A stretch of 64,000 nucleotides of DNA from the sequence record LC788708.1; one strand, given 5' to 3'. Position numbers and translations under genes: made by a program. Positions 10,483-41,743 of the stretch are shown here, one piece after another. The number at the start of each line of letters is the position of its first letter. Position 1 is the first letter of the stretch. The stretch is from Escherichia coli phage AZ21. The notes beneath the pieces were generated by a model. That model saw only the letters and a list, made by a program, of their open reading frames with translations. It had not been told where the DNA came from and did not search any database.

Positions 10483-10518
10483 CTGATACAGCACTGAGCA
10501 AGTTCTTTAAAATTTGAC

Positions 10519-10700: not shown

Positions 10701-10717
10701 AATTAAAGGTAAAGGAT

Positions 10718-26044: not shown

Positions 26045-26649
26045 TGACTTTTAATACACAACAATCTATTCAAGTAGTGCCAGATCATGAACTGAACACA
26101 TGGGATTATAGCTTTAAAGATTTAACTGCTACTATACAATTTAAATCTATGAAGCTAACATTTGCACACACTGATCTTAGAGCCTGTAAAGATCTTGAGG
26201 ATAAGCTCGAAGATGCTCGTAAGATTTTTGGCAAGGCTCGCATCCCGGCTGATAATCTAATTAACGCATTAATCGATGTAGGATACAAACTCGTGAAGAC
26301 TGAGGTGAACCGCCCTAGTACTCCAGTGACTGTTAGAGATCCGTGGCAGCCAGGGACAATCTCAATGCTAAATAAATCATCGGATATACACAATGTTCCA
26401 TGCGGTGGTGTGGTAAGTAGTACGCAGTCATACAAGTTTGGTGAAGATTACGGCCCTTCTGTGCAGTTGAAACATACTCAAGAAGCTTTTGAATCTGATA
26501 TGCGAAGCGTAGCACCTGTGGATGCTGGAGTTTCTAGGAGTTCTGTTTGTACTATTCATTTTAATAATCCTAGTAAACATGGAAGTTTAGAGGATGCTAT
26601 CCTTGAAGCGTTGGGAGCTGCTATTAATGAAGATAAAAGAGGTAGTTAA
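26044..26649 (+). CDS. hypothetical protein
   Basis: 201 aa ORF in overlapping array. Confidence 0.5.
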   Translation: MTFNTQQSIQVVPDHELNTWDYSFKDLTATIQFKSMKLTFAHTDLRACKDLEDKLEDARKIFGKARIPADNLINALIDVGYKLVKTEVNRPSTPVTVRDPWQPGTISMLNKSSDIHNVPCGGVVSSTQSYKFGEDYGPSVQLKHTQEAFESDMRSVAPVDAGVSRSSVCTIHFNNPSKHGSLEDAILEALGAAINEDKRGS

Positions 26650-27539
26650 TGGGATTTTATAGTAATAGAAAACCAAAAGGTGTAACTGGTAAATTCGCAG
26701 TTGAAGAAAGACCTTTTCCACCGGTCGATGTAGAGAAACTACGTGAACTTCTAGAAATGCTAGAAGGTTGCCATGAACGTTGTTATTCTGAACTCTCTTT
26801 AAATGAGAAACGTGTTGTTGAGATGTTCTGTATTCGTTCAGCTAGAACAGCTAAAGGTACTTCTCCAAAAGATGAAGTAAAAGAGTACAGAGTTCTAGTG
26901 ATGCATGCTTGGGCACAACGTTTTGCAGTTCATTCGCTTCAGGAATGGTTTAATCTTCCAGCCTATAAAGATTTTCATGTTTACGAAGATGAGGTTATGA
27001 ATTATAATGAGTTGTATGGTTTGTCCTTCAAAAAGACAGGCTCACCGATGCATGATGCACTCAATTCATTCCCTGATCATTACCTTCCAGTTCGTGAATA
27101 TAGAGATCGTGAAGGAAATAAACCCTGCTTCACTATTTGGAATAAGTCTAAGACGATATCTGATCTAGATAATTATTGGTTTCGCACAAAAGAAGGATTC
27201 CTAGGAACAGAACCTTTACCTAAGGATCTCAAACCTATCCTTCCGCCTGCGAAACCTAAACATGAAGTAACGATTGCTATTAATAGAATAATTCTAGGAG
27301 CAGATGATCTTACTAAACAAATCGCCGCAGTTATCGCAGTTCTGTTTGACGGTACAAATTCTTCTGCACGTTATGAGAAGCTAACGGATAACAAATTGCA
27401 GATACCTAACGAGTTGTATGAGAGTTCGTGCAAGATCTATGATAACTTTAGTAAAGTAGATTACCCCGTGAGATCCATTAAAGAACTCATGGAGTATGCG
27501 GAGATGGGGATGAAAGGAAATCTCATGTTCGATGAATAA
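26649..27539 (+). CDS. hypothetical protein
   Basis: 296 aa ORF, last gene before the repeat-rich gap. Confidence 0.5.
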   Translation: MGFYSNRKPKGVTGKFAVEERPFPPVDVEKLRELLEMLEGCHERCYSELSLNEKRVVEMFCIRSARTAKGTSPKDEVKEYRVLVMHAWAQRFAVHSLQEWFNLPAYKDFHVYEDEVMNYNELYGLSFKKTGSPMHDALNSFPDHYLPVREYRDREGNKPCFTIWNKSKTISDLDNYWFRTKEGFLGTEPLPKDLKPILPPAKPKHEVTIAINRIILGADDLTKQIAAVIAVLFDGTNSSARYEKLTDNKLQIPNELYESSCKIYDNFSKVDYPVRSIKELMEYAEMGMKGNLMFDE

Positions 27540-27546
27540 ACTCTAC

Positions 27547-27575
27547 TTGACGTTATGATTTCTGCATGTTATAAT
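27547..27575 (+). promoter_or_regulatory. sigma70 promoter firing into the non-coding repeat region
   Basis: TTGACG-17-TATAAT with no ORF downstream for about 1.8 kb. Confidence 0.55.
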
Positions 27576-27903
27576 AACTCTATGAAATAACATAGAATAA
27601 AGAGATCCACCCGGATACGGATGGTGGATGGGAAACTTCTATTTCCCCCGTAGCTTGTCGGAGGGCTAGGGAAATCTTAAGAAGTTTTGTACCATCTCAC
27701 GCAATTCGTATCCCAGGGGTGGAGCATCTCTTCCAATCTTTGGGGATCTTATACTTAAATTAAAGGTAAAACTTTTGGTCACATAATTTACATTCAAGAT
27801 GATACACTGGTTGCCGCCATTCTTCCTAGGATGGCACAACACTTTCTTCTAGACTCCTAAGTTTCTAGGAATACTAACTCTAGAGTTTACACTAAACTTT
27901 GAA

Positions 27904-28641
27904 TCGGATTCGCACATGCTCTAGGGCAGTTTTTCATCTACTATAAATATCCTAGGCCGGTTTTCCTATACAGGGCGGTTATGGGGAGGGCGGTTATTTC
28001 TAGACAATAAAATTTACTCTTGTCAGTCCAGAAATTACTGTCGGATTTGCACATTGTGTTTCTAGAAATTTATGGTCGGATTTGCACAATTGCCTAAGTT
28101 TTTAGGAACATATAATCTCCTGAAAATGGCAGCATTATTTCGGGCCGAAGGCCCATGATTGCCTGAGTTTTTTTAGAGACACAGAAATTTTCACTTGTCA
28201 AGCTATTTTGCCCCATTTTGCTAATAAAATTTTACTTTATCTCCCCTAATCTCAAATTAACCCAAATCTTCTCAACTCTTCTCCAAAATCCCCGCAAATC
28301 AGGTGCTCCGCACCAAACATGCGCCCCTCCCGTAGTTCCCCCAAGTTTCTCTCGATCTCTCAACTTCTCCCCAAACTCATACAATCACACACCCTCCAAT
28401 CGAAGTCACAAAAATCTTGTCGGATTCGCACAAATAAACCCATGTCGGATTTGCACATATTCTAGTTAATTCCACAGGATTGATGCGCAGCATCGGATTG
28501 CTGGAGTTTTTGGGAGAATTCATTGTCGGATTCGCACACTATAAAAATTTTTCGGGTCGGATTTGCACACTACCAAAAATTGTCGGATTCGCACATACAC
28601 GCCCACGCGTAATCCATGGGGGCAAATGTCGGATTTGCACA
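27904..28641 (+). repeat. array of 9 direct copies of GTCGGAT(T/C)(T/C)GCACA
   Basis: Copies at about 27904, 28040, 28075, 28419, 28444, 28525, 28557, 28582, 28628, same orientation, irregular spacing, non-coding. Confidence 0.8.
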
Positions 28642-28647
28642 AAAGCG

Positions 28648-28663
28648 CAGGGCAATTGCCCTG
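28648..28663. repeat. perfect 16-bp palindrome CAGGGCAATTGCCCTG
   Basis: Exact reverse-complement symmetry. Confidence 0.8.
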
Positions 28664-28705
28664 CTTGCCTGAATGCGAATGATAATGAGAATCATTTGCA
28701 TTTAA

Positions 28706-28858
28706 AAAGCGGAATGAGAATGATAATAATTCGCATTTAAGAATGGAAGTGAGAATTATTCAGGAAGTGAAACGATTCTCATTTAAAAAGTGAAACGATT
28801 CTCATTTAGAAAGTGAAACGCGAATGATAATGATTCGTATTTAAGAATGGAAGTGAGA
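28706..28858 (+). repeat. two about 42-bp direct repeats flanking a 23-bp tandem repeat
   Basis: ATGATAAT.ATTCG.ATTTAAGAATGGAAGTGAGAA at about 28706 and 28817; GTGAAACGATTCTCATTTA(A/G)AAA x2.5 at 28767-28822. Confidence 0.75.
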
Positions 28859-28874
28859 AACACTATTATTTAAG

Positions 28875-28964
28875 TTATCCACAGACTTATCAACAGCACG
28901 ATTTGACTTGACAGAATCCTAGCCATTTTGAGGCGTTATCAACAGACTTATCAACAGCTTATCC
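28875..28964. promoter_or_regulatory. DnaA-box cluster
   Basis: TTATCCACA at 28875-28883 plus three TTATCAACA variants within 90 bp. Confidence 0.55.
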
Positions 28965-28984
28965 TACTGTATAAATATACAGTA
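28965..28984. promoter_or_regulatory. LexA (SOS) box, near-consensus
   Basis: TACTGTATAAATATACAGTA, i.e. CTGT-N8(AT-rich)-ACAG, one spacer difference from the E. coli consensus. Confidence 0.6.
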
Positions 28985-29177
28985 TTCCTATGCAGTGAAT
29001 AATTCTAATATACAGCTAAAACGCTCTCAAACGCATTCTAACGCGTTTAATTTTGGTGGGGATACTAAAACAAGGGCAAAATTGGAGGAGGCTTGAAAAT
29101 TAGTTAGCTCGCTAATGATCACACACGGCGACACGTAACACCCTAACCATTAGCAGGCTAACCATCGCGGGCGTGGT

Positions 29178-29200
29178 CAAATGAGAATGATTCTCATTTG
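29178..29200. repeat. perfect inverted repeat CAAATGAGAAT-G-ATTCTCATTTG
   Basis: 11-bp arms around a single central base. Confidence 0.8.
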
Positions 29201-29350
29201 TGGATTGGGGGCGCTTCCTGATAGTTGCGCCCCGTGATTATTATAGTAGGGGGCAACCGTTACGCTTTGCCCACTCCCGCCACTCATCTTGGTGCCTAGA
29301 CTTGCGACGGCGTACTAAAAACCGCTTGTACCAGTGATTAAACCATCGTT

Positions 29351-29554
29351 TCATAAATCCTCCTCCGGTAGTCGATGCGTGATCTTTTCCTCCTCCCCAT
29401 AGGAATCCACCAAATACTGATAATAACCATCGTGATCATAAATCACTTTATCATATTCCCCACGCTCGACCGCTTGCCGATTTTCCAACGTATCAGGCAC
29501 AAAGAAAGTATCAACGGTAACAGTAGTTTTAGTTACAACAATTTTATCACTCAT
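29351..29554 (-). CDS. hypothetical small acidic protein
   Basis: 67 aa; last gene of tightly packed minus-strand operon; start overlaps upstream tiny ORF. Confidence 0.45.
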   Translation of the reverse strand: MSDKIVVTKTTVTVDTFFVPDTLENRQAVERGEYDKVIYDHDGYYQYLVDSYGEEEKITHRLPEEDL

Positions 29555-29680
29555 AATGCCATCGCCCCTAGAATGAGAATGATTATCAATATCATTGTGA
29601 AGCCATTACCAAATCGTAAACGCTGGGAATGTTTCCCAGCGGTATTATTAGACTTATGGCTTTGTGTTTTTCGCCACCAG

Positions 29681-29881
29681 CTATTCACGGTAGACGCTCC
29701 ATCCGTCTAGCTTCCATTCTTCCCCCTTGCGAATATTGAAAAACCAATCATTAAAATTGTAACCATCTTCTGACATGATCACGCCGTTTTCTTTCATGTA
29801 CAAAAATTCATCACTAGTAAAATATTGATTACTAACTTTAAAACCTTGTTTCATTTTTTCTAGTGCTTCATCTTTAGTCAT
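29681..29881 (-). CDS. hypothetical small acidic protein
   Basis: 66 aa; ATGA-type overlap with upstream gene. Confidence 0.45.
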   Translation of the reverse strand: MTKDEALEKMKQGFKVSNQYFTSDEFLYMKENGVIMSEDGYNFNDWFFNIRKGEEWKLDGWSVYRE

Positions 29882-30222
29882 TGCGCCACCTTTCGAAACG
29901 CTGTTTCAATACTATCCGCAGTGGATTGAATATATGCGCCTTTGAGTATCAGCCGCTCGGTGCATATCTTGCGAAAAATATTAATAAAATCGTCCTCATT
30001 TTCTGCGATTAATGCCTCACCCATAACCTGAACGTCGCAAGATGCAAAGGTCAAAAATTGAAACGCTAGTTCACGGGCAACGACCGCATTGATTTTATAA
30101 TGCGCCTTGCCTTCATAGATATTAATAACGCCCTTATAAGCTGGCGAAAGCTGATTTAAGTAGTTTGCTAATAATGCCGGACGGCAATTAGCAACAAAAC
30201 GATTGCCCTCATAAATAACCAT
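29878..30222 (-). CDS. hypothetical protein
   Basis: 114 aa, minus-strand operon member. Confidence 0.5.
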   Translation of the reverse strand: MVIYEGNRFVANCRPALLANYLNQLSPAYKGVINIYEGKAHYKINAVVARELAFQFLTFASCDVQVMGEALIAENEDDFINIFRKICTERLILKGAYIQSTADSIETAFRKVAQ

Positions 30223-30349
30223 TTGATAGTCTCCCGATTAGATAGCCAGATAATAACATAAAGATCCCCAATAAAAGAGGATCATTCTTAAATAAGGTGG
30301 CGGTAAAACCGCCAACCATTGCAAGGAGAATAACAATAATGCTTTTCAT
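30209..30349 (-). CDS. small membrane protein (46 aa)
   Basis: MKSIIVILLAMVGGFTATLF hydrophobic ORF; ATG overlaps stop of upstream gene (ATGA) and its stop overlaps next start. Confidence 0.3.
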   Translation of the reverse strand: MKSIIVILLAMVGGFTATLFKNDPLLLGIFMLLSGYLIGRLSNGYL

Positions 30350-30558
30350 AGTACCCCACGAAACGCAGCGTAAAAGGTGGCAAAGTGTTTAACTGTTTCA
30401 GCAATCACGTTGCCGCGCTTATCAAATTTCTTTTCTGTAACACGAAAGGCATTTTTATTACGTGCTACATATTCGATTTTACAATCTTCCCGCTCGAACG
30501 TGTTAACATCCACCAGCTTAAAGCCTTTCGAACGTGCAAGAGAAACGTTGCGGATCAT
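30346..30558 (-). CDS. hypothetical basic protein
   Basis: 70 aa ORF in minus operon. Confidence 0.45.
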   Translation of the reverse strand: MIRNVSLARSKGFKLVDVNTFEREDCKIEYVARNKNAFRVTEKKFDKRGNVIAETVKHFATFYAAFRGVL

Positions 30559-30560
30559 TT

Positions 30561-30743
30561 TTATTCCCCTTTACTAGTCATGCAGCCCAGCAGATAAGAA
30601 AATACAGCGATGCCAGCACCAATAGTAACCATTGGTTTTATATTTACTAAACCGCAATAGGAATCCTGAATACCATAAGCGGTGGCGAAAAGAGTCAAAA
30701 TAGCGCCCAAGATACCCGCTAAAATAGCTCGAAAAATAACCAT
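30561..30743 (-). CDS. small membrane protein
   Basis: 60 aa with two hydrophobic helices; preceded by GGGGCG-loop-CGCCCC hairpin. Confidence 0.45.
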   Translation of the reverse strand: MVIFRAILAGILGAILTLFATAYGIQDSYCGLVNIKPMVTIGAGIAVFSYLLGCMTSKGE

Positions 30744-30792
30744 TTGTAATACTCCTCTAGTTAGTGGGGCGAAAGTAACGCCCCGTTATTAA

Positions 30793-31023
30793 TTACATTA
30801 AAATAATTTTTGCCGCTTGTTTTTTGGTACAGTGTTCCGCTTTCAGGGTGTCCAGCAAAAAGCCCGCCGTTTGCTGATCGATTTTATCGGCATTATATAG
30901 TTCTTGGATGGTGTTATAAGTTTTAGCAATGCCGTATTCTTGTACCATTTCTTGAATAATCCAGCGATTTGATACCCAGCCTTTACCAGTGAAAAGAGCG
31001 TCAGAAGAAGAGTAAGCAACCAT
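30793..31023 (-). CDS. hypothetical protein
   Basis: 76 aa from ATG with RBS GGAGGCTTAAAATG (minus strand); longer track ORF lacks RBS. Confidence 0.45.
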   Translation of the reverse strand: MVAYSSSDALFTGKGWVSNRWIIQEMVQEYGIAKTYNTIQELYNADKIDQQTAGFLLDTLKAEHCTKKQAAKIILM

Positions 31024-31086
31024 TTTAAGCCTCCAAATTTTTGGGAAAATTTTCAACCGTCCTCAAACGGTGTAAAGGCATTATAA

Positions 31087-31115
31087 CAAAAAAGGCCGCC
31101 ATAAAAGGCGACCTT
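31087..31115 (-). terminator. rho-independent terminator (minus strand)
   Basis: AGGTCGCC-loop-GGCGGCCT hairpin followed by TTTTTT on minus strand, right after the stop of 31130-31624. Confidence 0.5.
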
Positions 31116-31129
31116 TACAAAACTTTACA

Positions 31130-31624
31130 TTAAACTACTTGTAAGGATTCAATATTGAAACATCGTTTCAGTTCGTCATGCAAAACGGCATATTCATCCC
31201 ATCGGGTACTATCAGGAATATAAACAAGCTGTTTTAATCGGTTTGCATATATTACCGCTTTGTTATCAATTATCTCGACGCCACCATATTTAATAATTAA
31301 TTTCATGACGGAATTAATAGGATCGCCGCCGTTTACATATGCGCCGGATTTACTTAATTGATAATGATAAAGGCTTGCATATACGTTTTCATTTTCATAC
31401 CATTCGCCAGTCTCTTCGTCTTCATAGCCATCGCTACCAAAACGAGAAGCATTATCAACAGCCATTTCATGAGCAAAAGCGTCCAGATCCGTACCAGCAG
31501 GAACAAAATATTCCTCGGTATTCCCTTCCCCGCAATAGCCAGTATGACAATCGACTAAAATGATCATATCATGTTTAGCCTTGCTCACTTCCCCTAGCGA
31601 GAAGCCGTATTTTTCTTCTAACAT
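31130..31624 (-). CDS. hypothetical acidic protein
   Basis: 164 aa from ATG with RBS GGAGAC; acidic run DGYEDEETGEWYENENVY. Confidence 0.5.
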   Translation of the reverse strand: MLEEKYGFSLGEVSKAKHDMIILVDCHTGYCGEGNTEEYFVPAGTDLDAFAHEMAVDNASRFGSDGYEDEETGEWYENENVYASLYHYQLSKSGAYVNGGDPINSVMKLIIKYGGVEIIDNKAVIYANRLKQLVYIPDSTRWDEYAVLHDELKRCFNIESLQVV

Positions 31625-31688
31625 AATTAGTCTCCTATTAATTAACAAGGAAATAGTAAAGCGGGGAAATAATCCCCGCTAGATATTA

Positions 31689-31922
31689 TTACTCGTTTTC
31701 GGTGTTAGTGGTAAAAGTAGAGATATCGATACCTTTTACCATTTCATCGATCATCTCAGCGATGTTAAAACTTTGCACCATTTCTAACATTGCCGCTTCC
31801 ATAGCCGCCCCTGCTACCGCTTTCGCTTTCTGATTAGTCGGGGCGTACTGGTCAACCGCTACACTCAGCAGGTTAGCGATCACTACACGACCAATCGGCG
31901 TATCAATATAGCCTTTGATCAT
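31689..31922 (-). CDS. hypothetical protein, possibly C-terminal part of a frameshifted gene
   Basis: 77 aa ORF overlapping end of 31903-32694 by 20 nt; reachable by +1 shift at an A7 run. Confidence 0.4.
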   Translation of the reverse strand: MIKGYIDTPIGRVVIANLLSVAVDQYAPTNQKAKAVAGAAMEAAMLEMVQSFNIAEMIDEMVKGIDISTFTTNTENE

Positions 31923-32694
31923 AAACGGTGCTTTTTTTAGCCGCTACTTTCGTGATTTGAGTTAGTGCAATTTTACCAGCTTCCAGTTTTGCAGCGTTTA
32001 CAACAGCGGATTTATTAGCGGCAACGATATTAGCGATCTTGGTCATGGTATTTTTTCCTTTGTTTTCAGTAGTTTGAGTATTAACGCTTTGAGTGTTAGA
32101 GCTTACAACCTGTTTTTCAATATTGTCAACTGGTTTTAGTGTAAATCCAGCATTTGCAACGTTTGATTCATTCCCATACTCTAAATAATCACTAGGGATC
32201 AACATGTTGCCACTAGCGCGTTCAAAACATAACACGCCAGTTGTAGAAATTACATTACTATCAGCACTTTTGTAATTAGCTGATAGTTCACGCCAAATGC
32301 TAGTTAATAACGATCCGACACTATCAGTCCTGATATTACTTACTTTTGTTGCTGTTACTTGCTCTTTTTCTTGCACGTTATATAATCGCGCAATGTAACC
32401 ACTATTAGATTCACTATAACCAACAATGATAAAATCAATATCTCTTCCACGTTGATTGCGGAAAATGTGATAATCACGGTTGAAAATTACTAGCGCCCTT
32501 TTCTGGTCTAGTAATTGTGTGAAATCTTCAACTGAATAATGAGTACCCTCATCGTCTAAAATTCTATCATGAATCTTTTCGATAATAGTAGCGGTATGCT
32601 GTACGCTTGCCGCGCTACTACCCTCTAACAGATTGCGCAAACTGCCTTTAATAATAGTGGCGTTTGCTGGTACTGCAATTCTTACAGTAGACAT
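31903..32694 (-). CDS. hypothetical protein (first gene of minus-strand operon)
   Basis: 263 aa ORF, Ser/Thr/Asn-rich middle, Ala/Lys-rich C-terminus; ends just after A7 homopolymer. Confidence 0.5.
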   Translation of the reverse strand: MSTVRIAVPANATIIKGSLRNLLEGSSAASVQHTATIIEKIHDRILDDEGTHYSVEDFTQLLDQKRALVIFNRDYHIFRNQRGRDIDFIIVGYSESNSGYIARLYNVQEKEQVTATKVSNIRTDSVGSLLTSIWRELSANYKSADSNVISTTGVLCFERASGNMLIPSDYLEYGNESNVANAGFTLKPVDNIEKQVVSSNTQSVNTQTTENKGKNTMTKIANIVAANKSAVVNAAKLEAGKIALTQITKVAAKKSTVYDQRLY

Positions 32695-32960
32695 TTTATT
32701 TTGTCTCCCTCGTTAATCGGTGAGTGAATGATAAGGGTAATTTTCTAGCATAGGCAAATATTATTTTACTTTTTTATTTTCCTTGCCTAGCGTCTAATTT
32801 TATGCTAACCGCGCAGCGGTGCAATAAAGAGCAAACCACGGCGAAGCCACCAGCCCGACGCATTGAGGCTTTACTTTAATATTACCTTACAGCGTTTAGC
32901 TCGTTAGAATGCGTTTTGGGCCACTTAAAATTGATTGCAGTTGTTAACACTACCTTTCTA

Positions 32961-32980
32961 CCCTGTATATTTATACAGTG
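32961..32980. promoter_or_regulatory. LexA (SOS) box
   Basis: CCCTGTATATTTATACAGTG with perfect CTGT-N8-ACAG core, about 270 bp upstream of the first minus-strand gene. Confidence 0.55.
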
Positions 32981-32988
32981 GAATAACC

Positions 32989-33397
32989 TGTGGATAAGTC
33001 TGTGCAAAAGTCCTTATATCACCGCCTATCGTGTCAAGTTATTTTGTGCTGTGGAAAACATTGTGGATAACTTAAATGATAGTGCTTCTCACTTAGGCTA
33101 ATGATTTCTTATAGTTATTATTTCTCATTAATTTATAAGTATATTATATATTATCAAATAGTTAGTTGGCTAATGAGATTTTCCGTGATTAATAGTCTGC
33201 TAATAATTCAGGTCGTTACAATCCACCAGCATGATTATCATTCTAGCAATTATTAGTCTGCTATCTTTCCGATACATACTAACAAATAAAAGTCAATTAA
33301 TTTATTTCATAAAATAAGTAGTTATCCACTGGAAAATAAAAGTCAAGTGGATAACTAGGAAAATTTCATTTTTGCTTTTGGGGATAAGTTATCAACA
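32989..33397. promoter_or_regulatory. DnaA-box cluster
   Basis: TGTGGATAA at 32989 and 33062, TTATCCAC at 33322, GTGGATAA at 33347, TTATCAACA at 33389. Confidence 0.55.
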
Positions 33398-33799
33398 AGG
33401 CTAGAATGCGCCTAAAACGCTCCAGAACGCGATGAAGTTTTTAGCCACCCCATCATAAGGGGATAGGCCGTTTATCGCTGCCACGAGCTTTTTAGATTTT
33501 GTCAAGTAGGGGAAAGCAAATATAAATGAAAAAATTACTTGCCTATTTGCTTTATTTTGTGGTATTCGCGCCCGTTTCTTTTAATTTTAGGCCGTCGCCG
33601 GACGTGGTGCGGTGAATTTTGTCTTTACGTTTCTTTACAAAAATAAGGTTGCGCCATTTTCGGGAATCCCCTATTATTTATCACGTAGGGCGGCAATGAC
33701 GAACTACACGGCGGGAAGTTTACCGCCACGCTCTTTAAAAATTGGGTACATCTTAAAGCCTATCGGCGGTAAACTTATTTATTATAAGGAATCGACGAT

Positions 33800-34012
33800 A
33801 TGAAACAAACTTTATTGATCACTGGCAAGCCTATTAAGGCACTAGATAGCAAAACAAAAAATTTGTTGACAGTAGCGCAAAGATCGGTAAAATACCGATT
33901 CACGCAGTACAAGAAAGACCGCCAGCAAGGTTTAGAAATGATCTGGCGAAACATTATGATTGACTTGAAAGAAAATCATAAAAAACTGCAAAAAAATTAT
34001 TTGACAACCTAG
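33800..34012 (+). CDS. hypothetical ORF (doubtful)
   Basis: 70 aa ORF but contains internal TTGACA-17-TAAAAT promoter-like sites; may be non-coding. Confidence 0.2.
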   Translation: MKQTLLITGKPIKALDSKTKNLLTVAQRSVKYRFTQYKKDRQQGLEMIWRNIMIDLKENHKKLQKNYLTT

Positions 34013-34233
34013 CCGATAGGTTTTAAGATGTACCCAGTTCGATAAGAGCGATAACTTGATAAAATTTGACGGTCGGTGCTTACCATAATGCGCCCCGCCC
34101 CCTAACGGGATATAGCGGCCTACGTGGAGTTCTTTAAATTGATTATAGCGGCGAGAGGATTGTTACTTATTACCTGCTAGTATTTTCTAGTAGGTAATAA
34201 GTAACAATCCATCAAATAACTGGAGTTTATATT

Positions 34234-34485
34234 ATGCAAAACGTTATTACCGCGCCTAAAATTGGTCAATCCGTCTTTATTCCTTTCGTTACTAAAACGG
34301 ATGAATTAACCGGAAAGGCCGAACGTATTAAAGGTGCGGCGCTTATGCCGTTCGATACAATCGACGCGGTATATGCTGAAAATGAACGCAGTAACAACGG
34401 CAAGCCCGTTTTTAGCGTTCGCGTTAAATCCGGCGATGTTGTAAAGGTTGTTCAACGCAACGAAAAATGGGAAGCTGTGTTGTAA
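34234..34485 (+). CDS. pre-early hypothetical protein
   Basis: 83 aa, RBS AACTGGAGTTTATATTATG; followed by perfect 9-bp hairpin. Confidence 0.5.
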   Translation: MQNVITAPKIGQSVFIPFVTKTDELTGKAERIKGAALMPFDTIDAVYAENERSNNGKPVFSVRVKSGDVVKVVQRNEKWEAVL

Positions 34486-34583
34486 TTTAGTGTTAACTTT
34501 ATATCCCCCTTATTTCAGGGGGATATAACGATTAACATTAAGTTAATCTAATCCCTTAAATTAAACTAATAGGAGTTTTTACC

Positions 34584-34991
34584 ATGACTAACGCAAAAAC
34601 CGCAAAATTCGCATGGAATGAAGAAAACACTCAGAAAGCTGTTACCATGTACCAGCAGTTAATCAACGAAAACGGTTTAGATTTTGCAAATAGCGACGGC
34701 CTGAAAGAGATTGCAAAAGCAGTAGGCGCGGCCTCCCCCGTATCCGTTCGGTCAAAATTGACCAGTGCAAAAGCCTATCAAAAAAGCGATAAGCCGCGTA
34801 AAGTTGGCGGCGGTAGCTCTGTGCGTAAAGCTCACTATGTGCGAGTAATTGCAAAACACGCTATCGATTCCGGTATTATCAAAGACGCCGATGATCTGGC
34901 AAGCCTTGAAAGTGCTAAACTGGAAACGCTGGACGCGGTGGCGCAACTGTTAGGCGTTGCCGATGAAGTAAAACAAGCCGTAGGTGAATAA
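34584..34991 (+). CDS. pre-early hypothetical protein
   Basis: 135 aa, RBS AGGAG; followed by GCCCCCT-loop-AGGGGGC hairpin. Confidence 0.5.
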   Translation: MTNAKTAKFAWNEENTQKAVTMYQQLINENGLDFANSDGLKEIAKAVGAASPVSVRSKLTSAKAYQKSDKPRKVGGGSSVRKAHYVRVIAKHAIDSGIIKDADDLASLESAKLETLDAVAQLLGVADEVKQAVGE

Positions 34992-35081
34992 TAGTTATAC
35001 CTTGCCCCCTTCTAGTGAGGGGGCACTAATATAACTGTTTAGCGATAGTTATTTTCTTCCCTTAAATCAGGAGTTTTAAAA

Positions 35082-35279
35082 ATGGTTTTCTTCCCTACTG
35101 AATCTTTGATTCTAGGCTTGTTTATTATGGCGGCCTCATTATTGTTCGCTTATTTTCAGAATGATTTAGATTCGTATTATTTTAAACGTAAATCTAAATT
35201 AGCAAAACGTTTGGGCTTGCTTTGTTTTATCGCTGCCGTTGCCTGTGGTGTTAGTTCGAGTCTAGTACCATTAAATTAA
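35082..35279 (+). CDS. small membrane protein
   Basis: 65 aa with two hydrophobic helices; RBS AGGAG. Confidence 0.4.
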   Translation: MVFFPTESLILGLFIMAASLLFAYFQNDLDSYYFKRKSKLAKRLGLLCFIAAVACGVSSSLVPLN

Positions 35280-35366
35280 TGTTGCAAATTATAACGCCTA
35301 TTATTCGAGGCGTTATATTTGGCAATATTGCCATTATTAACCTAATCCCTTTAATGGAGTTTTATT

Positions 35367-37037
35367 ATGATTATTTCCGCAGAAAAACAAACCGTTATCC
35401 TGAAAATGGCCGCTGATTTCAATTTCTACGGTAAACGCCTGCGCGCCACTAAACTGGAGGTCTGCGACGATATTTCAAAAGCGGTCTACGATACAACGAA
35501 ACACTCCACCGCTATCTGCGACTGGCTGGAAGCAAATAAACCAGCGAAACCAAAAGCGGCAAAAGTAGCAAAAGCCATTAAAAACGGTGAGCGCCCCGAA
35601 GCGGCTGGGATTGTTTCTAGTACCGTGGAGCAGTGGGAAGTAAAACAAGGTAAACGCTTTATTATTACATCGATTCAGAATAATACTTTCCCGCATAAAA
35701 ACTTTTTAGCCTCACTGGAGCAATTTGCTAAATATATCGGGGCTGATTTGCTCGTTTCTAAGTATATTTATAATAAAAACGGTTTTCAAAATGGGGAAGG
35801 TGCTGACGGAATCAAATATGATTCCGCGTTTGATAAATATATTTGCAGCAAAAACGTGTTTTTGAATAACCGCCGCTTTGCTTTCATGGCTGAAATTAAT
35901 GTTTTGCCTACCGCAGATTATCCGCTTTCTGGATTCGCAGAAACTGCAACGGCTTTAAATATTGAAGGTCTGGCAATTGGTCACGCTAAAATTACCGCTG
36001 AAAGCGTACCAGCTTTAAAAGGTGAAGTAGTGCGCCGTATGTACTCAACCGGAACGGCAACGCTCAAAAACTACATTCAGCAGAAAGCAGGACAAAAGGC
36101 CGAGGCGCTGCATAACTTCGGTGCGCTTATTGTTGAGTTCGACGAGGACGGGGAATTTTTTGTACGCCAGCTTGAAACGATGGACGAAAGCGGGGTATTT
36201 TATGATCTGAATGTGTGTGCTACTCCTGCCGGATGCTATGAAACATCGGGGCATGTTTTAGGCTTGCAGTATGGCGATATTCACGCCGAAAAATTAGATG
36301 AGGAGTGCGCCGCCGCGTCATGGGGGCATGGTGATACTTATGGGCTAGTAGATATTCTTAAACCAAAATATCAGTTTGTGCATGACGTGCATGATTTTAC
36401 ATCGCGCAATCATCATAACCGCGCATCGGGTGTATTCCTAGCAAAACAGTACGCCGCCGGACGTGATAAGGTTATTGATGATCTTATCGATACGGGGCGC
36501 GTGCTGGAATCAATGGAGCGTGATTTTTCTCAAACAATCATTGTTGAATCGAATCACGATTTGGCGTTATCCCGTTGGCTTGATGATCGTAATGCTAACA
36601 TCAAAGACGATCCAGCAAACGCAGAACTGTATCACCGCCTGAATGCTGCAATTTACGAGGCAATCGGTGAACATGACGAAACGTTCAACGTGCTAGATTA
36701 TGCGCTGCGCAAGGTTGCAGGTTGTGAGTTTAACGCCATTTTCCTGACCACTGACCAATCTTTCAAGATTGCAGGCATTGAATGCGGCGTACACGGTCAC
36801 AACGGCATTAATGGCAGTCGTGGCAATCCCAAACAATTTAAGAAATTGGGCAAGTTAAACACTGGTCATACTCATACGGCAAGCATTTACGGCGGGGTAT
36901 ATACCGCTGGCGTAGCTGGTAGTCTGGATATGGGTTACAACGTTGGCGCGTCAAGCTGGACGCAAACTCATTTAATTACCTATGCAAACGGTCAGCGCAC
37001 TTTGATTGACTTTAAGAACGGTAAATTTTTTGCGTAA
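35367..37037 (+). CDS. A1: A1-like pre-early protein, calcineurin-like metallophosphatase (Mre11/SbcD-type nuclease fold)
   Basis: 556 aa (size of the T5 A1 product as I recall it); GDIH, ESNHD, HGHNG, GHTHT metallophosphatase motifs in order; sits with dmp-like gene. Confidence 0.7.
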   Translation: MIISAEKQTVILKMAADFNFYGKRLRATKLEVCDDISKAVYDTTKHSTAICDWLEANKPAKPKAAKVAKAIKNGERPEAAGIVSSTVEQWEVKQGKRFIITSIQNNTFPHKNFLASLEQFAKYIGADLLVSKYIYNKNGFQNGEGADGIKYDSAFDKYICSKNVFLNNRRFAFMAEINVLPTADYPLSGFAETATALNIEGLAIGHAKITAESVPALKGEVVRRMYSTGTATLKNYIQQKAGQKAEALHNFGALIVEFDEDGEFFVRQLETMDESGVFYDLNVCATPAGCYETSGHVLGLQYGDIHAEKLDEECAAASWGHGDTYGLVDILKPKYQFVHDVHDFTSRNHHNRASGVFLAKQYAAGRDKVIDDLIDTGRVLESMERDFSQTIIVESNHDLALSRWLDDRNANIKDDPANAELYHRLNAAIYEAIGEHDETFNVLDYALRKVAGCEFNAIFLTTDQSFKIAGIECGVHGHNGINGSRGNPKQFKKLGKLNTGHTHTASIYGGVYTAGVAGSLDMGYNVGASSWTQTHLITYANGQRTLIDFKNGKFFA

Positions 37038-37093
37038 TTAAATTATTTCCCTAGCGGCTTGAAATACAGCCGCTATTACAGGAGCTAAATTAA

Positions 37094-37372
37094 ATGGCTA
37101 TTAAAATTAATCTTCCCAATATTAAAAACACCGCTGATATATGGTCGATTGATACTATATTGCGTGGCACTGTATACCGTAATTTAAAAGATAATAATTG
37201 TTATATTTATCAAAATGAATTAAACGGCCATATTTACATAATCGAGTCCGATGGTTTTTGTTCTTTTGAGACTGATTATGAAGCGCAAGATCATATACAG
37301 GCAAATGATATTCCTGACGTATGGAAAGAAACAAACCTTGCTTTTGTTGTAAGTCTTGAAGCTAACAAATAA
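37094..37372 (+). CDS. pre-early hypothetical protein
   Basis: 92 aa ORF downstream of A1-like gene, RBS AGGAGCTAAATTAAATG. Confidence 0.45.
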   Translation: MAIKINLPNIKNTADIWSIDTILRGTVYRNLKDNNCYIYQNELNGHIYIIESDGFCSFETDYEAQDHIQANDIPDVWKETNLAFVVSLEANK

Positions 37373-37410
37373 ATTAAATATCTTATTAAATTAATTGGAG
37401 TTTTACAAAT

Positions 37411-37803
37411 ATGAAAAAGCAAAATATTCCATTCGATCGCGCTCAGTCTTCTATTGTTCTGGTTTATTCTAATGGTGAGCGTTACCACGTCGAGGCGGGG
37501 CACGTTATTGATGAATTATTAGATTTCAATGACGCTTTACAGGTTACTACCTTTGCCTACACGCAAGGCCGCGCAAGTAGTTACATTAAGGCCGCAGGCG
37601 TTTATGTTGACACGGTGAAACAAGAAACGATTATCATCGACGCAGTAAAATCCGGTCTAGCCTTTGCAGTTGTCGCGCCTTGCCCCTCTTGTCTTGATGA
37701 TCAGCTAACGAGTGCGAAAGTATACACCTGCGCGGGCATTCGTTCCCATGTATCAGGAGAGGATATTAGTTTTATCGCTGATGCGTTGGCTTATGGTCTT
37801 TAA
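37411..37803 (+). CDS. pre-early hypothetical protein (possible A2 equivalent)
   Basis: 130 aa ORF downstream of A1-like gene; assignment by position only. Confidence 0.4.
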   Translation: MKKQNIPFDRAQSSIVLVYSNGERYHVEAGHVIDELLDFNDALQVTTFAYTQGRASSYIKAAGVYVDTVKQETIIIDAVKSGLAFAVVAPCPSCLDDQLTSAKVYTCAGIRSHVSGEDISFIADALAYGL

Positions 37804-37883
37804 TAGTTGATTTATTATTGCCCGCTGATAGATAGCGGGCAATGCTGGATAAACTACATCCCTTTAATGGAGAACGTAACAAA

Positions 37884-38618
37884 ATGAATCAAGTTAAAAC
37901 GAATATTTCCCGTAACTTCCCGCATATTTCCCGCGTCATGATCTGGGATCTTGATGGCACTATCGTTAATTCATTCCATCGTGTAGCGCCTTGCTTTGAT
38001 AGTGAGGGTAATCTAGATTTAAATAAGTATAAGAATGAGGCTTGCAAACATGATTTAATAATGCAGGATACTTTATTGCCTTTGGTGGAATATATGCGCC
38101 AATGCATGAATGACGCAAATACTTTAAACATTATTTGTACCGCTCGATTAATGAGCAAATCGGATTATTATTATTTGCGCAAACAAGGCTTGCGAGGGCG
38201 TGGGGATAGCAATATCCGCGTGTTTTCCCGCGACACGCTGCATAAATATTTTGAAGCTGATAAGGTTAGCGAGATATACCACAGTAAAGACGCAGTTTAT
38301 AAATCGTATTACTTTGAATTATTTAAACAGCTATATCCGAACGCTGATTTCACAATGATTGATGATCATAAAGGTGTATTATCAGCGGCGGCGTCATACG
38401 GATTTAAAACGCTAGACGCGCAAGCCGTTAACGATATTCTATCAATCGGCGTGGCATTGATAGGCGGAACCTTTATTGATGAATCTCTCGATGATGATAA
38501 TGATTATCAGTTCCTAGCCGATCGATTGAAATTATGTTGGGAAAGTATGACCGAAGAAGAACGCGCAGAATATAGTTGCAGCCCGCAACAATATATTGAG
38601 AAATTAAAAGTTGCGTAA
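37884..38618 (+). CDS. dmp: HAD-family 5'-deoxyribonucleotidase (dmp-like)
   Basis: VMIWDLDGTIVNS (HAD motif I DxDGT); RBS GGAGAACGTAACAAAATG; pre-early context. Confidence 0.65.
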   Translation: MNQVKTNISRNFPHISRVMIWDLDGTIVNSFHRVAPCFDSEGNLDLNKYKNEACKHDLIMQDTLLPLVEYMRQCMNDANTLNIICTARLMSKSDYYYLRKQGLRGRGDSNIRVFSRDTLHKYFEADKVSEIYHSKDAVYKSYYFELFKQLYPNADFTMIDDHKGVLSAAASYGFKTLDAQAVNDILSIGVALIGGTFIDESLDDDNDYQFLADRLKLCWESMTEEERAEYSCSPQQYIEKLKVA

Positions 38619-38782
38619 TAATTAAAGTTGAAATAGTTTCATCCTGCAATTAAAATGGTTGCGGGATGAAACAATTACCCTGCTAATAGTAACGGGGGTG
38701 GCGGTTAGCAGACTAAGTATTCTCCCCCAACCCACTGGACACACCTCCATGTGTAATCCTATGAAATTTGGCAAAAGTCAAA

Positions 38783-39028
38783 TTAGCGCATAGAAGGGTC
38801 ATCAAACCTGTGCTCTGGTCTGAACTCACGGAATCTCTTCCACGACGCCCGAGATCCATCAGACCACTCCCGCTCAAACTCCGCACGTTTCTCGTCAAAC
38901 TTCCGCTCCCTTTCCGCAATCTCTCGCGTCACCCCCGCGATATATTCCCGATGCTTGTTAATTGCCGCAGTTGTCCCGAAAACTCCCGCGAGTATCCCGA
39001 TAATAAAAGCAATTACAATACTAAACAT
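38783..39028 (-). CDS. small membrane protein
   Basis: 81 aa, N-terminal TM helix then charged tail. Confidence 0.4.
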   Translation of the reverse strand: MFSIVIAFIIGILAGVFGTTAAINKHREYIAGVTREIAERERKFDEKRAEFEREWSDGSRASWKRFREFRPEHRFDDPSMR

Positions 39029-39215
39029 CTAATTCCCTCTCAATTTGCAGAATACGGGTACTATCACAACGTTGCAGTAGTGCTAGCTTTTCTAGAGTAA
39101 CTTGTTGTTGTTTTACCTGAGCTTCTAGAGTTTTTAGGCGGAGATACACGATACGAGAGACAATGAGGATTACCCAGACTAATATTACCATTAGTGTAAT
39201 TGCCGCTTCCATCAT
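39021..39215 (-). CDS. small membrane protein
   Basis: 64 aa, TM helix then coiled coil. Confidence 0.4.
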   Translation of the reverse strand: MMEAAITLMVILVWVILIVSRIVYLRLKTLEAQVKQQQVTLEKLALLQRCDSTRILQIERELDV

Positions 39216-39318
39216 TTACGTTTCTCCAATAATAAGGTTTCAATTCTAGCTAAATGATTATCTAAAATACATTGTCCAATAATCACAATCCCTAGTAGTG
39301 CAATAATTACCCATTCCA

Positions 39319-39510
39319 TTAAATCCACCCCGCCATAGCTGCTAACCAAAAACCTACGAAGATTAGGAATAATACAAAACCAAATCCGTAAATATTAATC
39401 CACGCTTCATATACTTCTCCGCGTCTGTTCTTTCTTTTATTTGACATATCTTTCATGCTCCAATAAATGTGGTATCTGGAATATTTTACAGTTTGTGCAC
39501 AACCAACCAT
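39319..39510 (-). CDS. small membrane protein
   Basis: 63 aa, C-terminal TM helix. Confidence 0.4.
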   Translation of the reverse strand: MVGCAQTVKYSRYHIYWSMKDMSNKRKNRRGEVYEAWINIYGFGFVLFLIFVGFWLAAMAGWI

Positions 39511-39623
39511 GCTTGTGACTTCCTAGAAGGACTTCTCATTTTCTTGCATAGTGGTTTCTGCCAATATACCATCCAAAAAATAAAAAATTTAGTTTACTTG
39601 GATGTCGTTTTGCTTTATACTAA

Positions 39624-39890
39624 TTACAGGTAGTTAGATTGCTCTAGTTTAAATTTACAATCACCGTATTTAAGATCAAACTGACTGAGATCCCACCACC
39701 CAAACTTAGTACGGAGCTGTACTACTGGGAAGCGATCTCCCTTAATACGAACTTTTTGAACTTTGAGGCCATAATGTTCTTCTCCTGCACCTCCAAAAGA
39801 TTTTACAAATCCCGTACAAAATGGTTTGGGAGCAGGTGCACAACCAGATAACATAACTGCGGCAACTAGTGCAATCACAAACTTTTTCAT
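39624..39890 (-). CDS. llp: lipoprotein, Llp-like superinfection-exclusion (receptor-blocking) candidate
   Basis: 88 aa; signal peptide with lipobox LSGC; divergently placed immediately upstream of receptor-binding protein gene as in T5. Confidence 0.6.
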   Translation of the reverse strand: MKKFVIALVAAVMLSGCAPAPKPFCTGFVKSFGGAGEEHYGLKVQKVRIKGDRFPVVQLRTKFGWWDLSQFDLKYGDCKFKLEQSNYL

Positions 39891-39975
39891 ATTTATCTCT
39901 CCATTTCTAATTTATGAATCTATTATAGCAAAATAGAGGGATGAAAGCAAATACATTTTTATAATAGGAGATTAT

Positions 39976-41733
39976 ATGGGTTTTTTCGCTGGTAAGTATA
40001 GCGATGGTAAGACCGTACTATCTTTAAATACTGAATCTGGTGGTGACATTAATCGTCACTATAGTCCAAATGCCAATAGTATTTTTCATAGTGATATGCC
40101 ATTTGTCCTAGTTGATGGTACTTATGAGTCTGGGTTAGGTGATGCCGGTAATGGGTTTTTTGTATGTCAGATGCCCTCTGACATAATAAATATTAAATCT
40201 AACGATCCTGGTAGAGTTATACTAACTGCTATTGAAATTAATGGTACTCACAGAGCTTTTCTTAACGGTACTCAGAGTAAAGTAGGTCAAACTATAGCTG
40301 CCACTCAAGCAGATCCTTTTAGATCTTTTGCTAGTGTTTCCCAGACTAGTGGATTTGCATTTGGTAATAGCCTGGCATCTGGTACATATAACTATAATCC
40401 ATCTATAGGGCATGAAGAATCTATTTCTAGAAATGGTACTGGTGGAACCACCCTACATAGTACGTATCATGGTATAGTTAGGCCAGGTGCAGGAGCTCCA
40501 GTAGGGGTTACTGTTGCAGAAGCTTTTGCACAGTTGGGTTTTCCTACTAATAGTAGTACAGTACCTATAGATGGTAATAATCAATATTACTGGGACCCAG
40601 GATGGATGTCTCCTTTAGGATCAGCACACAGAGGGCACGATTGGTTTTATGTTTGTAACTCTAACATACGTGGGTATGGTGGGGTAAGACAAGGTCTTCC
40701 TGGTAGTGTAAATACTATGTATCATGATGGTGGCAACAGATTTGTTTGTAGGGGTTCTACAACTAATTTAGCTAATCAATCTAGTGATTCTACAATACTA
40801 CAAGATTGGTATAACATAACTCCTACTAAGGTTATTTGGTACGTCTTGAATTTAAGATATTCTGGCGGCAATATGAGTATCTCTGGTAATCCTTTTACTG
40901 GTTCAGATATTCTTATATCTCCTTCTAATTTCATAATTAAAGGGGTTAGTCTTCCCAATACTGGATACAAGTTTATTAACCAGAACGCTTTCGGTAACTT
41001 AGGTTATAGACCAGATATGGAATATATTGGAAATAATGCAGCGTACACTGGGGCCTTCGGAGATACTACTGCAAGGTGTGAACTTGTAGGTTCTAGTAAT
41101 GGGGGTTTATGGTCTCCTGTGGACTATGGAGGGGCTAAGTCTCAAATTAGTATTTACAAATTCGGAGCTGGTAAGCAATGGTACGTAAACTCTAATGATA
41201 ATACTATCGGTAATGAACACGGGGTTGTTTGGGGGCCTTCAGCAGTTCCACTACGACTTTTTAGCGGAAATGTTGGTAGTTCTTACATGGGGGATGATAT
41301 TACTCCCAGCTATCCAGGAACTGGAGATAGATACGTTGGTTTATCAACTATTGGGCTAGGTATACCGGGTGGCAATGCTACCGTAATTCTTACCACTGAA
41401 GTTATATCAGGTAATCTTAACTGCGCGGGTGTTCCCGCTAATACATGGAATAACGGTGTATTTCAGGTTCAAGGAAGAAGAGCATATAGTTATAGTAATG
41501 GGGATGCAATATTTCATCAGATTTTAACATTACCAGTAGGGTATTTAGTACCTTTTCATACTACATCTGCTTTTAGATACACACCTAACAATGCCCTAAG
41601 TAGAAATAGTTTTATATACACTGCTAAAAATCTGGGGAATGGAAATGTAGAGCTAGGGGTAGTTATGCACGTAAGTTTAGGTAGTGCAGTTTTCCTACCT
41701 AGATTAAGAGTAACAGTTCAACGCCTAACCTAA
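39976..41733 (+). CDS. oad: receptor-binding tail protein (pb5-like)
   Basis: 585 aa; position next to llp-like gene; N-terminus (MGFFAGK...IFHSDM) and C-terminus (VQRLT) resemble what I recall of T5 pb5, with a diverged central region. Confidence 0.6.
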
Positions 41734-41743
41734 AGGAGGATAT

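What the first reader, a model, noticed from the sequence alone, without database searches (positions are those of the whole stretch)
27540..39600. Window crosses an early -> pre-early -> late junction, consistent with a collapsed terminal repeat
Early-type genes with a tRNA island are followed by the repeat region, pre-early genes (A1-like, dmp-like), then llp/pb5 and the packaging and morphogenesis genes. In a linear T5-type genome the pre-early genes sit in long terminal direct repeats, so this order arises if the two repeat copies were merged in a circularised assembly. The 29-39 kb segment also looks GC-richer than its flanks by eye.
Basis: inference. Interest (0 to 1): 0.5.

Follow-up and report, generated by a model that had tools for sequence, protein, structure and literature searches.

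The report
Collapsed T5-type terminal repeat in assembly
This stretch is the single merged copy of the roughly 10.6-kb repeat that a T5-like phage carries at both ends of its DNA; the merging is a routine and well-known result of genome assembly, not new biology.

Summary
The window is 100% identical to Escherichia coli phage AZ23 (LC788707.1, Tequintavirus, 104,075 bp). It runs: early genes (T5.023-T5.018 homologues), a repeat-rich non-coding region, pre-early genes (T5.017-T5.011 homologues on the - strand; T5.009-A2-A1-dmp on the + strand), small membrane-protein genes, a lipoprotein gene, pb5, terminase.

The physical ends of phages T5 and MM-1 map to window 28176 and 38740/38741. L6jm and SIA3lw agree at 28176 and 8sent1748 at 38741. 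Homology runs straight through both points.

The record holds one copy only. It is about one repeat length shorter than relatives deposited with both copies. Its first and last 111 nt are identical, as in a contig that closes on itself.

The repeats at 28.0-29.2 kb are the published T5 injection-stop region, with eight DnaA-type boxes in two 132-bp inverted elements.

The GC excess is small (40.1% against 38.2%). It holds mainly against the AT-rich early flank, and T5 and MM-1 show the same pattern.

Read depth could not be checked. Verdict: observation confirmed, interpretation supported, already known, low interest.

The parts
25419..27539 (+). Last early genes before the repeat: homologues of T5.023, T5.020, T5.019 and T5.018, the genes that adjoin the left terminal repeat in T5
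   Evidence: tblastn with T5 proteins; blastn to T5 and MM-1 'left repeat + early' loci
27540..28175 (.). Unique non-coding spacer just outside the repeat. It holds two copies of the GTCGGATTTGCACA unit (28040, 28075), the part of T5 'Repeat Region 3' that runs beyond the repeat
   Evidence: Repeat positions. T5 and MM-1 sequence after their left repeat aligns here. Davison 2020 states that Repeat Region 3 overruns the left repeat by 270 bp
28176..38741 (-). Predicted terminal repeat / first-step-transfer region, 10,566 bp, one merged copy, in reverse orientation to the T5 map. In window orientation the virion DNA would begin at 28176 and end with a second copy at 38741
   Evidence: The T5 and MM-1 right ends map to 28176. 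The T5 left end maps to 38741 and the MM-1 left end to 38740. L6jm and SIA3lw agree at 28176 and 8sent1748 at 38741. The boundaries are inferred by homology, not measured in AZ23
28040..28641 (+). Eight copies of GTCGGATTYGCACA, matching the DRD direct repeats of the T5 injection-stop region
   Evidence: description of nine DRD repeats in T5
28643..28665 (+). Homologue of the T5 major single-strand interruption site: GCGC next to the palindrome GCAGGGCAATTGCCCTGC. The nick would fall between 28643 and 28644
   Evidence: T5 annotation places the nick at 9748/9749. The three-way alignment is invariant here and the window sequence was read directly. The nick itself is not testable
28677..28860 (.). 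Tandem and direct repeats of 23-35 nt (GAATGAGAATGATAAT..., AAGTGAAACGATTCTCATTTAAA) inside the injection-stop region
   Evidence: (families D9, D12)
28851..28982 (.). 132-bp element matching IRD'-spacer-IRC' of T5. It holds four DnaA-type boxes in two pairs 3 bp apart (TTATCCACA at 28875, TTATCAACA at 28887, 28936 and 28948)
   Evidence: Inverted repeats I1, I2 and I14; box scan; cross-match to T5 6098-6228; Davison 2020
29351..32694 (-). Pre-early transcription unit 2: homologues of T5.017, T5.015, T5.014, T5.013, T5.012 and T5.011, plus ORFs of 66, 172 and 77 aa that gave no T5 match
32963..33094 (.). 132-bp partner element matching IRC-spacer-IRD, between the two divergent pre-early units. 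It holds four consensus DnaA boxes in two pairs (32989, 33001, 33050, 33062, - strand)
   Evidence: Davison 2020
33696..38618 (+). Pre-early transcription unit 1: homologues of T5.009, T5.008, T5.007, A2 (34584-34991), T5.005, A1 (35367-37037), T5.003, T5.002 and dmp (37842-38618)
   Evidence: tblastn 82-98% aa identity; PHROG hits 'DNA transfer protein' and 'DNA binding protein'; annotations of close relatives
38783..39510 (-). Unique late-side genes just outside the repeat: homologues of T5.162, T5.161, T5.160 and T5.159, small membrane proteins
39624..39890 (-). 88-aa lipoprotein in the llp position, divergent from pb5. It is not similar to T5 Llp
   Evidence: LPAM_1 lipobox; phrog_1119 'Cor superinfection exclusion protein'; no tblastn hit with T5 Llp; called receptor-blocking protein in relatives
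39976..43542 (+). Start of the late region: pb5 receptor-binding protein (39976-41733), T5.156 homologue (41744-42226), large terminase (42226-43542)
63818..63928 (+). The 111 nt present at both ends of the GenBank record, inside the L-shaped tail fibre gene. The window reads across this join

Best explanation
The window comes from a T5-like phage (Tequintavirus AZ23) whose deposited sequence is an assembler contig that closes on itself. Virion DNA of this genus is linear and carries identical direct repeats of about 10 kb at both ends. A short-read assembler cannot tell two identical copies apart, so it merges them into one. The map then becomes a circle and is opened at an arbitrary point, here inside the repetitive tail-fibre gene. 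The single copy therefore sits between the last early genes (its neighbour at the left end of the virion DNA) and the late genes (its neighbour at the right end).

By homology the repeat is window 28176-38741. It holds the two divergent pre-early operons (dmp, A1, A2 and others) and the injection-stop region with its DnaA-type boxes and nick site. The virion genome should be about 114.5 kb (103,964 + 10,566).

The same early-repeat-late order is also expected at the joints of replicating concatemers, where packaging is thought to regenerate the second copy. The order is therefore a faithful picture of the circular or concatemeric map, though not of the packaged molecule.

Shown: gene identities, single copy, conserved end sequences, overlapping record ends. 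Inferred: that AZ23 virions carry two copies with these exact limits.
For: - The window is 100% identical to LC788707.1, a Tequintavirus.
- Orthologues of nearly all T5 repeat genes are present in T5 order, 82-100% aa identity apart from T5.011 at 48%. T5.016 gave no hit and hegG has no counterpart inside the repeat.
- The T5 and MM-1 ends map to 28176 and 38741/38740. Terminal and flanking sequences are conserved, and homology is continuous through both points.
- Independent records agree: L6jm and SIA3lw at 28176, 8sent1748 at 38741.
- AZ23 holds one place for the repeat.
- 460 records match A1 at 542 places, so at most about 82 records hold a second copy. In the sampled list most two-copy records are 116.5-125 kb and the full-length one-copy records are 104-117 kb, apart from one of 138 kb (KPP2018).
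- The left and right repeats of T5 and MM-1 are base-for-base identical, so they are bound to merge.
- The record's first and last 111 nt are identical, and 112 are not.
- PhageTerm paper: assemblers place the first base of such phages at random, and the repeat shows twofold depth (PMC5557969).
- BF23: 114,544 bp with 9,743-bp repeats found by PhageTerm after a SPAdes/Unicycler assembly (PMC10644984).
Against: - No reads were available, so twofold depth and end pile-ups were not seen.
- The limits are transferred from relatives that are 87-92% identical in this region.
- Some deposited relatives start 20-50 nt away from these points (atrejo, STyj5-1, 1Sgal2PP). This may reflect real differences, alignment trimming or looser end calls.
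- The 111-nt overlap lies in a tandem-repeat region, so on its own it is weaker proof of closure. A relative, IME178, has the same stretch contiguous but about 67 bp longer.
- The record is labelled linear and 'complete sequence', with nothing said about repeats.
Confidence: 0.9

Rival explanations
1. The repeat exists in AZ23 virions, but its limits differ from T5's by more than about 100 bp (a longer or shorter repeat). The predicted 28176-38741 would then be wrong in detail.
For: Repeat lengths differ within the group: T5 10,219 bp, MM-1 10,407 bp, BF23 9,743 bp. Several deposited relatives begin 20-50 nt from the T5-equivalent point.
Against: The length differences seen here come from insertions and deletions inside the repeat, not from shifted ends. 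T5, MM-1 and L6jm share the right-hand end position. SIA3lw, deposited in the opposite orientation, begins at the same position. T5, MM-1 (one base away) and 8sent1748 share the other end position. In AZ23 about 80 nt on each side of both points are conserved.
Confidence: 0.08
2. The depositors knew of the repeat and deliberately deposited a non-redundant genome, so the single copy is a choice of representation rather than an unnoticed collapse.
For: Many T5-like records are deposited with one copy only. Some of them start at the T5-equivalent left end, for example AKFV33, FFH1 and 8sent1748.
Against: The record starts and ends inside the tail-fibre gene and keeps a 111-nt end overlap. It annotates that gene as a 'partial CDS', carries no repeat feature and names every product 'hypothetical protein'. 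All this looks like raw assembler output. Either way the sequence layout and its cause are the same.
Confidence: 0.05
3. AZ23 has no long terminal repeats. Its virion DNA is about 104 kb, with permuted ends or ends elsewhere, and the order early - pre-early - late is the true order within packaged molecules.
For: Nothing positive. It is merely not excluded without reads.
Against: The large terminase is 95% identical to T5's. The sequences at and around both T5 cut points are conserved. The injection-stop region, the nick site and A1/A2, which only make sense with two-step injection of a terminal segment, are all intact.
Confidence: 0.02

Closest known systems
Bacteriophage T5 terminal repeats / first-step-transfer (FST) region (AY543070; Wang et al. 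2005; Davison 2020, bioRxiv 10.1101/866236)
   Same: Same genes in the same order and on the same strands: dmp, T5.002, T5.003, A1, T5.005, A2, T5.007-009, then T5.011-015 and T5.017 divergently. The sequences at both ends are the same. So are the injection-stop region with its direct repeats, the two 131-132-bp inverted elements carrying paired DnaA-type boxes, and the GCGC nick site.
   Different: - One copy in the record instead of two.
- No hegG homing endonuclease and no T5.016.
- An extra 172-aa ORF (phrog_6741).
- The T5.011 homologue is shorter and only 48% identical.
- All eight DnaA-type boxes are present, whereas T5 has seven according to Davison.
- The neighbouring receptor module (pb5 and lipoprotein) is of a different type from T5's.
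Escherichia phage vB_EcoS_MM-1 (PV577657.1), a close relative deposited with both repeats annotated (LTR 1-10407, RTR 107633-118039)
   Same: 87-93% nucleotide identity in the aligned blocks of the region. It has the same extra ORF, the same pb5/lipoprotein type and the same end positions.
   Different: MM-1 is given as the linear virion molecule with two identical copies. AZ23 is given as a closed contig with one.
Collapse of long direct terminal repeats in phage assemblies (PhageTerm class 'DTR long'; PMC5557969)
   Same: A single copy, an arbitrary start point, a contig that closes on itself and a total length short by one repeat.
   Different: The diagnostic twofold depth and end pile-ups could not be examined here.

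Membership tests
Tequintavirus (T5-type) terminal repeat / FST region | Pre-early gene set dmp, A1, A2 and the T5.007 homologue, which Davison 2020 names as the consistently conserved repeat genes, in two divergent units | tested here: met
   tblastn: dmp 96%, A1 96%, A2 98%, T5.007 89% aa identity. Strands are as in T5.
Tequintavirus (T5-type) terminal repeat / FST region | Sequence homologous to the physical ends of genomes with defined termini, with the expected unique neighbours (early genes on one side, T5.162-pb5 on the other) | tested here: met
   T5, MM-1 and L6jm end, and SIA3lw begins, at window 28176. T5, MM-1 (38740) and 8sent1748 begin at 38741. The flanks are conserved.
Tequintavirus (T5-type) terminal repeat / FST region | Untranslated injection-stop region: IRD'-spacer-IRC' and its distant partner IRC-spacer-IRD, together eight DnaA-type boxes in pairs 3 bp apart, plus a run of DRD direct repeats overrunning the repeat end | tested here: met
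   132-bp elements at 28851-28982 and 32963-33094 with 4 + 4 boxes in pairs. Eight GTCGGATTYGCACA copies, two of them outside 28176. Five of the 11 consensus DnaA boxes in the 64-kb window lie in these 264 bp.
Tequintavirus (T5-type) terminal repeat / FST region | Major single-strand interruption site at about 8% of the genome | tested here: inconclusive
   The site sequence (palindrome + GCGC) is invariant between T5, MM-1 and the window. Whether AZ23 DNA is nicked there cannot be read from the sequence.
Tequintavirus (T5-type) terminal repeat / FST region | Two identical copies, one at each end of the packaged DNA | not testable with these tools
   The record holds one copy. Virion DNA or reads are needed.
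Collapsed-repeat assembly artefact | One copy where the molecule has two, and a total length short by one repeat | tested here: met
   The record is 104,075 bp, or 103,964 bp non-redundant. In the sampled list most relatives with two copies are 116.5-125 kb (three are 108-109 kb, one is 148.7 kb), and full-length relatives with one copy are 104-117 kb apart from one of 138 kb.
Collapsed-repeat assembly artefact | The contig closes on itself (identical ends of k-mer-like length) and opens at an arbitrary place | tested here: met
   The first and last 111 nt are identical and 112 are not. The join lies inside the tail-fibre gene with the reading frame continuous. IME178 is contiguous across the same stretch.
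Collapsed-repeat assembly artefact | About twofold read depth over the repeat, with read starts and ends piled up at its limits | not testable with these tools
   No reads are available. No paper describing AZ23 was found.

The most novel reading that the evidence does not exclude
AZ23 might differ from T5 in how its DNA ends are made. For example it might package about 104 kb without duplicating the pre-early region, or cut at other sites. The early - pre-early - late order would then be present in virions. A Tequintavirus without a terminal first-step-transfer segment would call into question how two-step injection works in it.
Probability: 0.02. Interest if true: 0.5.

Novelty: already known. 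Interest (0 to 1): 0.07.

Why it matters
The value is mainly practical.
- The deposited AZ23 sequence is not the virion molecule.
- Its true length should be about 114.5 kb.
- Its natural start (T5 convention) is at window 38741 read on the - strand, which is record position 78,888.
- About 17 pre-early genes would be present twice per genome.
- Anyone counting genes, restriction sites in the first-step-transfer DNA, genome sizes or synteny among T5-like phages needs to know which records are collapsed. The A1 search gave 460 matching records and 542 places, so most records appear to hold one copy.

No new biology follows from the finding.

Tried and rejected
- **Compositional island.** Rejected. 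The GC excess is 2 points, 7% of equal windows reach it, and T5 and MM-1 share it.
- **Promoter and terminator scan of 27-40.2 kb.** Counts are not clearly above shuffles (46 against 38.4 ± 5.6; 18 against 12.5 ± 3.3). It was not used to define transcription units.
- **Pfam.** No family for A1, A2, dmp or pb5. PHROGs and direct comparison with T5 proteins gave the identities instead.
- **Rfam over the whole window.** Only tRNAs, nothing in the repeat.
- **Literature.** Searches for AZ23 or its accession found no describing paper. A first broad search for collapsed repeats returned only unrelated genome papers, and one search call failed on a term that was too short.
- **Exact-match origin of the window.** The window runs 72 nt past the record end. 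This turned out to be the record's own positions 112-183, so the source was read as a circle with the 111-nt overlap removed.


Full report
**Identity of the window.** A megablast of window 27000-40000 against deposited phage genomes gave one 100% match over the full length. The match is Escherichia coli phage AZ23, LC788707.1, Tequintavirus (Demerecviridae), 104,075 bp, labelled linear and 'complete sequence', with every product called 'hypothetical protein'. About 500 other T5-like records match at 80-95%. Window position 1 is record position 40,148. The window runs 72 nt past the record's last base, and those 72 nt are record positions 112-183. The last 111 nt of the record are identical to its first 111 nt, and 112 are not. 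The record is thus a contig that closes on itself, and the window reads across the join.

**The observation.**
- tRNA genes lie at 6.5-11 kb on the + strand.
- tblastn with T5 proteins places T5.023, T5.020, T5.019 and T5.018 at 25419-27539. In T5 these are the first early genes next to the left repeat.
- On the - strand at 29354-32685 lie T5.017, T5.015, T5.014 (100% aa identity), T5.013, T5.012 and T5.011.
- On the + strand at 33696-38615 lie T5.009, T5.008, T5.007, A2 (98%), T5.005, A1 (96%), T5.003, T5.002 and dmp (96%).
- T5.162-T5.159 lie at 38786-39447 on the - strand.
- Then come pb5 (39976-41733, only 30% identical to T5 pb5), the T5.156 homologue and the large terminase (95%).
- The 88-aa ORF at 39624-39890 (- strand) has a lipoprotein signal and hits the PHROG family named 'Cor superinfection exclusion protein'. 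Close relatives annotate it as receptor-blocking protein. It has no similarity to T5 Llp.

**Where the repeat lies.** I fetched both ends of T5 (AY543070; repeats annotated 1-10219 and 111532-121750) and of MM-1 (PV577657.1; LTR 1-10407, RTR 107633-118039) and aligned them to the window.
- Base 1 of T5 maps to window 38741 and base 1 of MM-1 to 38740, both in reverse orientation.
- The last base of both genomes maps to 28176.
- The terminal sequences are conserved. The T5 left end TGTCCACTGCC... corresponds to TGTCCAGTGGG... in the window. The T5 right end ...TTTCTGTGGCTC corresponds to ...TTTCTGTGTCTC.
- The unique sequences just outside both points are conserved as well.
- The 'left repeat + early' locus aligns through 28176 down to about 27,750-27,790. 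The 'late + right repeat' locus aligns through 38741 up to 39,483.

The window therefore holds both junctions around one copy of the repeat. Other records give the same points. L6jm ends at 28176. SIA3lw begins at 28176 and 8sent1748 begins at 38741. A few others start 20-50 nt away. The predicted repeat is 28176-38741, 10,566 bp, in reverse orientation to the T5 map.

**Why this order means a merged repeat.** The T5 virion map is left repeat - early - late - right repeat. Early genes touch the repeat only at the left end, and late genes touch it only at the right end. One piece reading early - repeat - late can arise only if the two copies are treated as one, as in a circle or a concatemer joint.
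- The AZ23 record has one place matching the repeat.
- With the A1 gene as probe, 460 records match at 542 places, so at most about 82 records hold a second copy.
- In the evenly sampled list most two-copy records are 116.5-125 kb. The exceptions are 108.1-109.0 kb (DT57C, HMD-P3, HMD-7) and 148.7 kb (GE_vB_N5). The full-length one-copy records are 104-117 kb, apart from one of 138 kb (KPP2018).
- AZ23 has 103,964 non-redundant bases and belongs to the second group. Adding 10,566 gives 114,530 bp, close to BF23's 114,544 bp (PMC10644984).
- The two copies in T5 and in MM-1 are identical base for base, so a short-read assembler must merge them.
- The PhageTerm paper states that assemblers place the first base of such phages at random and that the repeat shows twofold depth (PMC5557969).
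- Two sister records from the same sample series, NG_A1 and NG_S8, are also short of the two-copy sizes at 101,950 and 108,459 bp. The match in NG_A1 begins at record position 1, inside the repeat-rich region.

**What is inside.**
- Davison (bioRxiv 10.1101/866236) describes 'Repeat Region 3' with nine DRD repeats. It overruns the left repeat by 270 bp and contains a 131-bp IRD'-spacer-IRC' element.
- That element has a distant inverted partner, IRC-spacer-IRD, between the two pre-early units. Together they carry eight DnaA-type boxes in pairs 3 bp apart.
- The window has eight GTCGGATTYGCACA copies at 28040-28641, two of them outside 28176.
- It has 132-bp inverted elements at 28851-28982 and 32963-33094, each with four boxes in two pairs.
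- Five of the 11 consensus DnaA boxes in the whole 64-kb window fall in those 264 bp.
- The T5 major nick site (annotated 9748/9749) is a GCGC next to the palindrome GCAGGGCAATTGCCCTGC. It is invariant in T5, MM-1 and the window, at 28643/28644.

The BF23 paper notes that the function of these sites has not been tested experimentally.

**GC.** The repeat is 40.1% GC, the rest of the window 38.2%, the early flank 36.5% and the late flank 39.8%. 7% of equally long windows are as rich or richer, and the richest overlap the late genes. A1 (44.8%) and A2 (46.8%) contribute most, and without A1 the repeat is 39.3%. T5 and MM-1 show the same three-step pattern. It reflects the AT-rich early region and not a special property of the repeat.

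**Rivals.**
1. The limits could differ somewhat in AZ23. The conserved end sequences make this unlikely.
2. The depositors could have removed one copy on purpose. The arbitrary start, the retained 111-nt overlap and the 'partial CDS' annotation argue for raw assembler output.
3. AZ23 could truly lack terminal repeats. Nothing supports this. The terminase, the end sequences, A1/A2 and the injection-stop region are all T5-like.

**Verdict.** The GC remark is marginal. This is a known feature of a known phage group seen through a known assembly behaviour, so interest is low. The decisive test, read depth and end pile-ups, could not be run.

Noticed in passing
window 63400-64000 (record ends; 111-nt overlap at 63818-63928): The GenBank record starts and ends inside the L-shaped tail fibre gene and annotates the start as a 'partial CDS'. 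The two ends overlap by 111 nt and the reading frame is continuous, so the gene is probably whole. It contains a 21/63-nt tandem repeat (peptide repeat about SETNAKA). The relative IME178 is about 67 bp longer over the same stretch, so the repeat number in AZ23 may be under-assembled.
   Followed up: partly
window 39624-41733: The receptor module differs from T5. pb5 is 585 aa and 30% identical to T5 pb5 (640 aa). The adjacent lipoprotein has no similarity to T5 Llp and falls in a PHROG family named 'Cor superinfection exclusion protein'. This suggests a receptor other than the one T5 uses. Which receptor was not determined.
   Followed up: partly
window 31130-31648 (- strand) and 31903-32694 (- strand): A 172-aa pre-early ORF (phrog_6741, unknown function) is absent from T5 and present in MM-1. 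The neighbouring T5.011 homologue (DUF7566) is shortened to 263 aa and only 48% identical. T5.016 and the hegG homing endonuclease are absent from the repeat.
   Followed up: partly
window 772-22936, + strand: Fourteen copies of a promoter-like unit of about 65 nt lie in front of early genes and tRNA genes. Each has an AT-rich upstream stretch, TTGCT, a spacer and TATAAT. They look like the strong T5 early promoters.
   Followed up: no
window 27547-27575, + strand: The best promoter-like match in the region (TTGACG, 17 nt, TG-TATAAT, 11 of 12) lies just after the last early gene. It points into the non-coding repeat region, where no gene follows for about 1.7 kb on that strand.
   Followed up: no
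window 34157-34210 and 33729-34050: A near-perfect 24-nt-arm palindrome lies at 34157-34210. A pair of 39-nt inverted repeats flanks the T5.008 homologue. Both lie in the zone corresponding to T5 'Repeat Region 1' and the pre-early promoter area.
   Followed up: no
window 5959-10983: Only six or seven tRNA genes were found in the window (ARAGORN six; Rfam five, one of them extra at 5959). This is fewer than I recall for T5 (about two dozen, from memory, not checked here). The tRNA region may continue upstream of the window or be reduced in this small genome.
   Followed up: no
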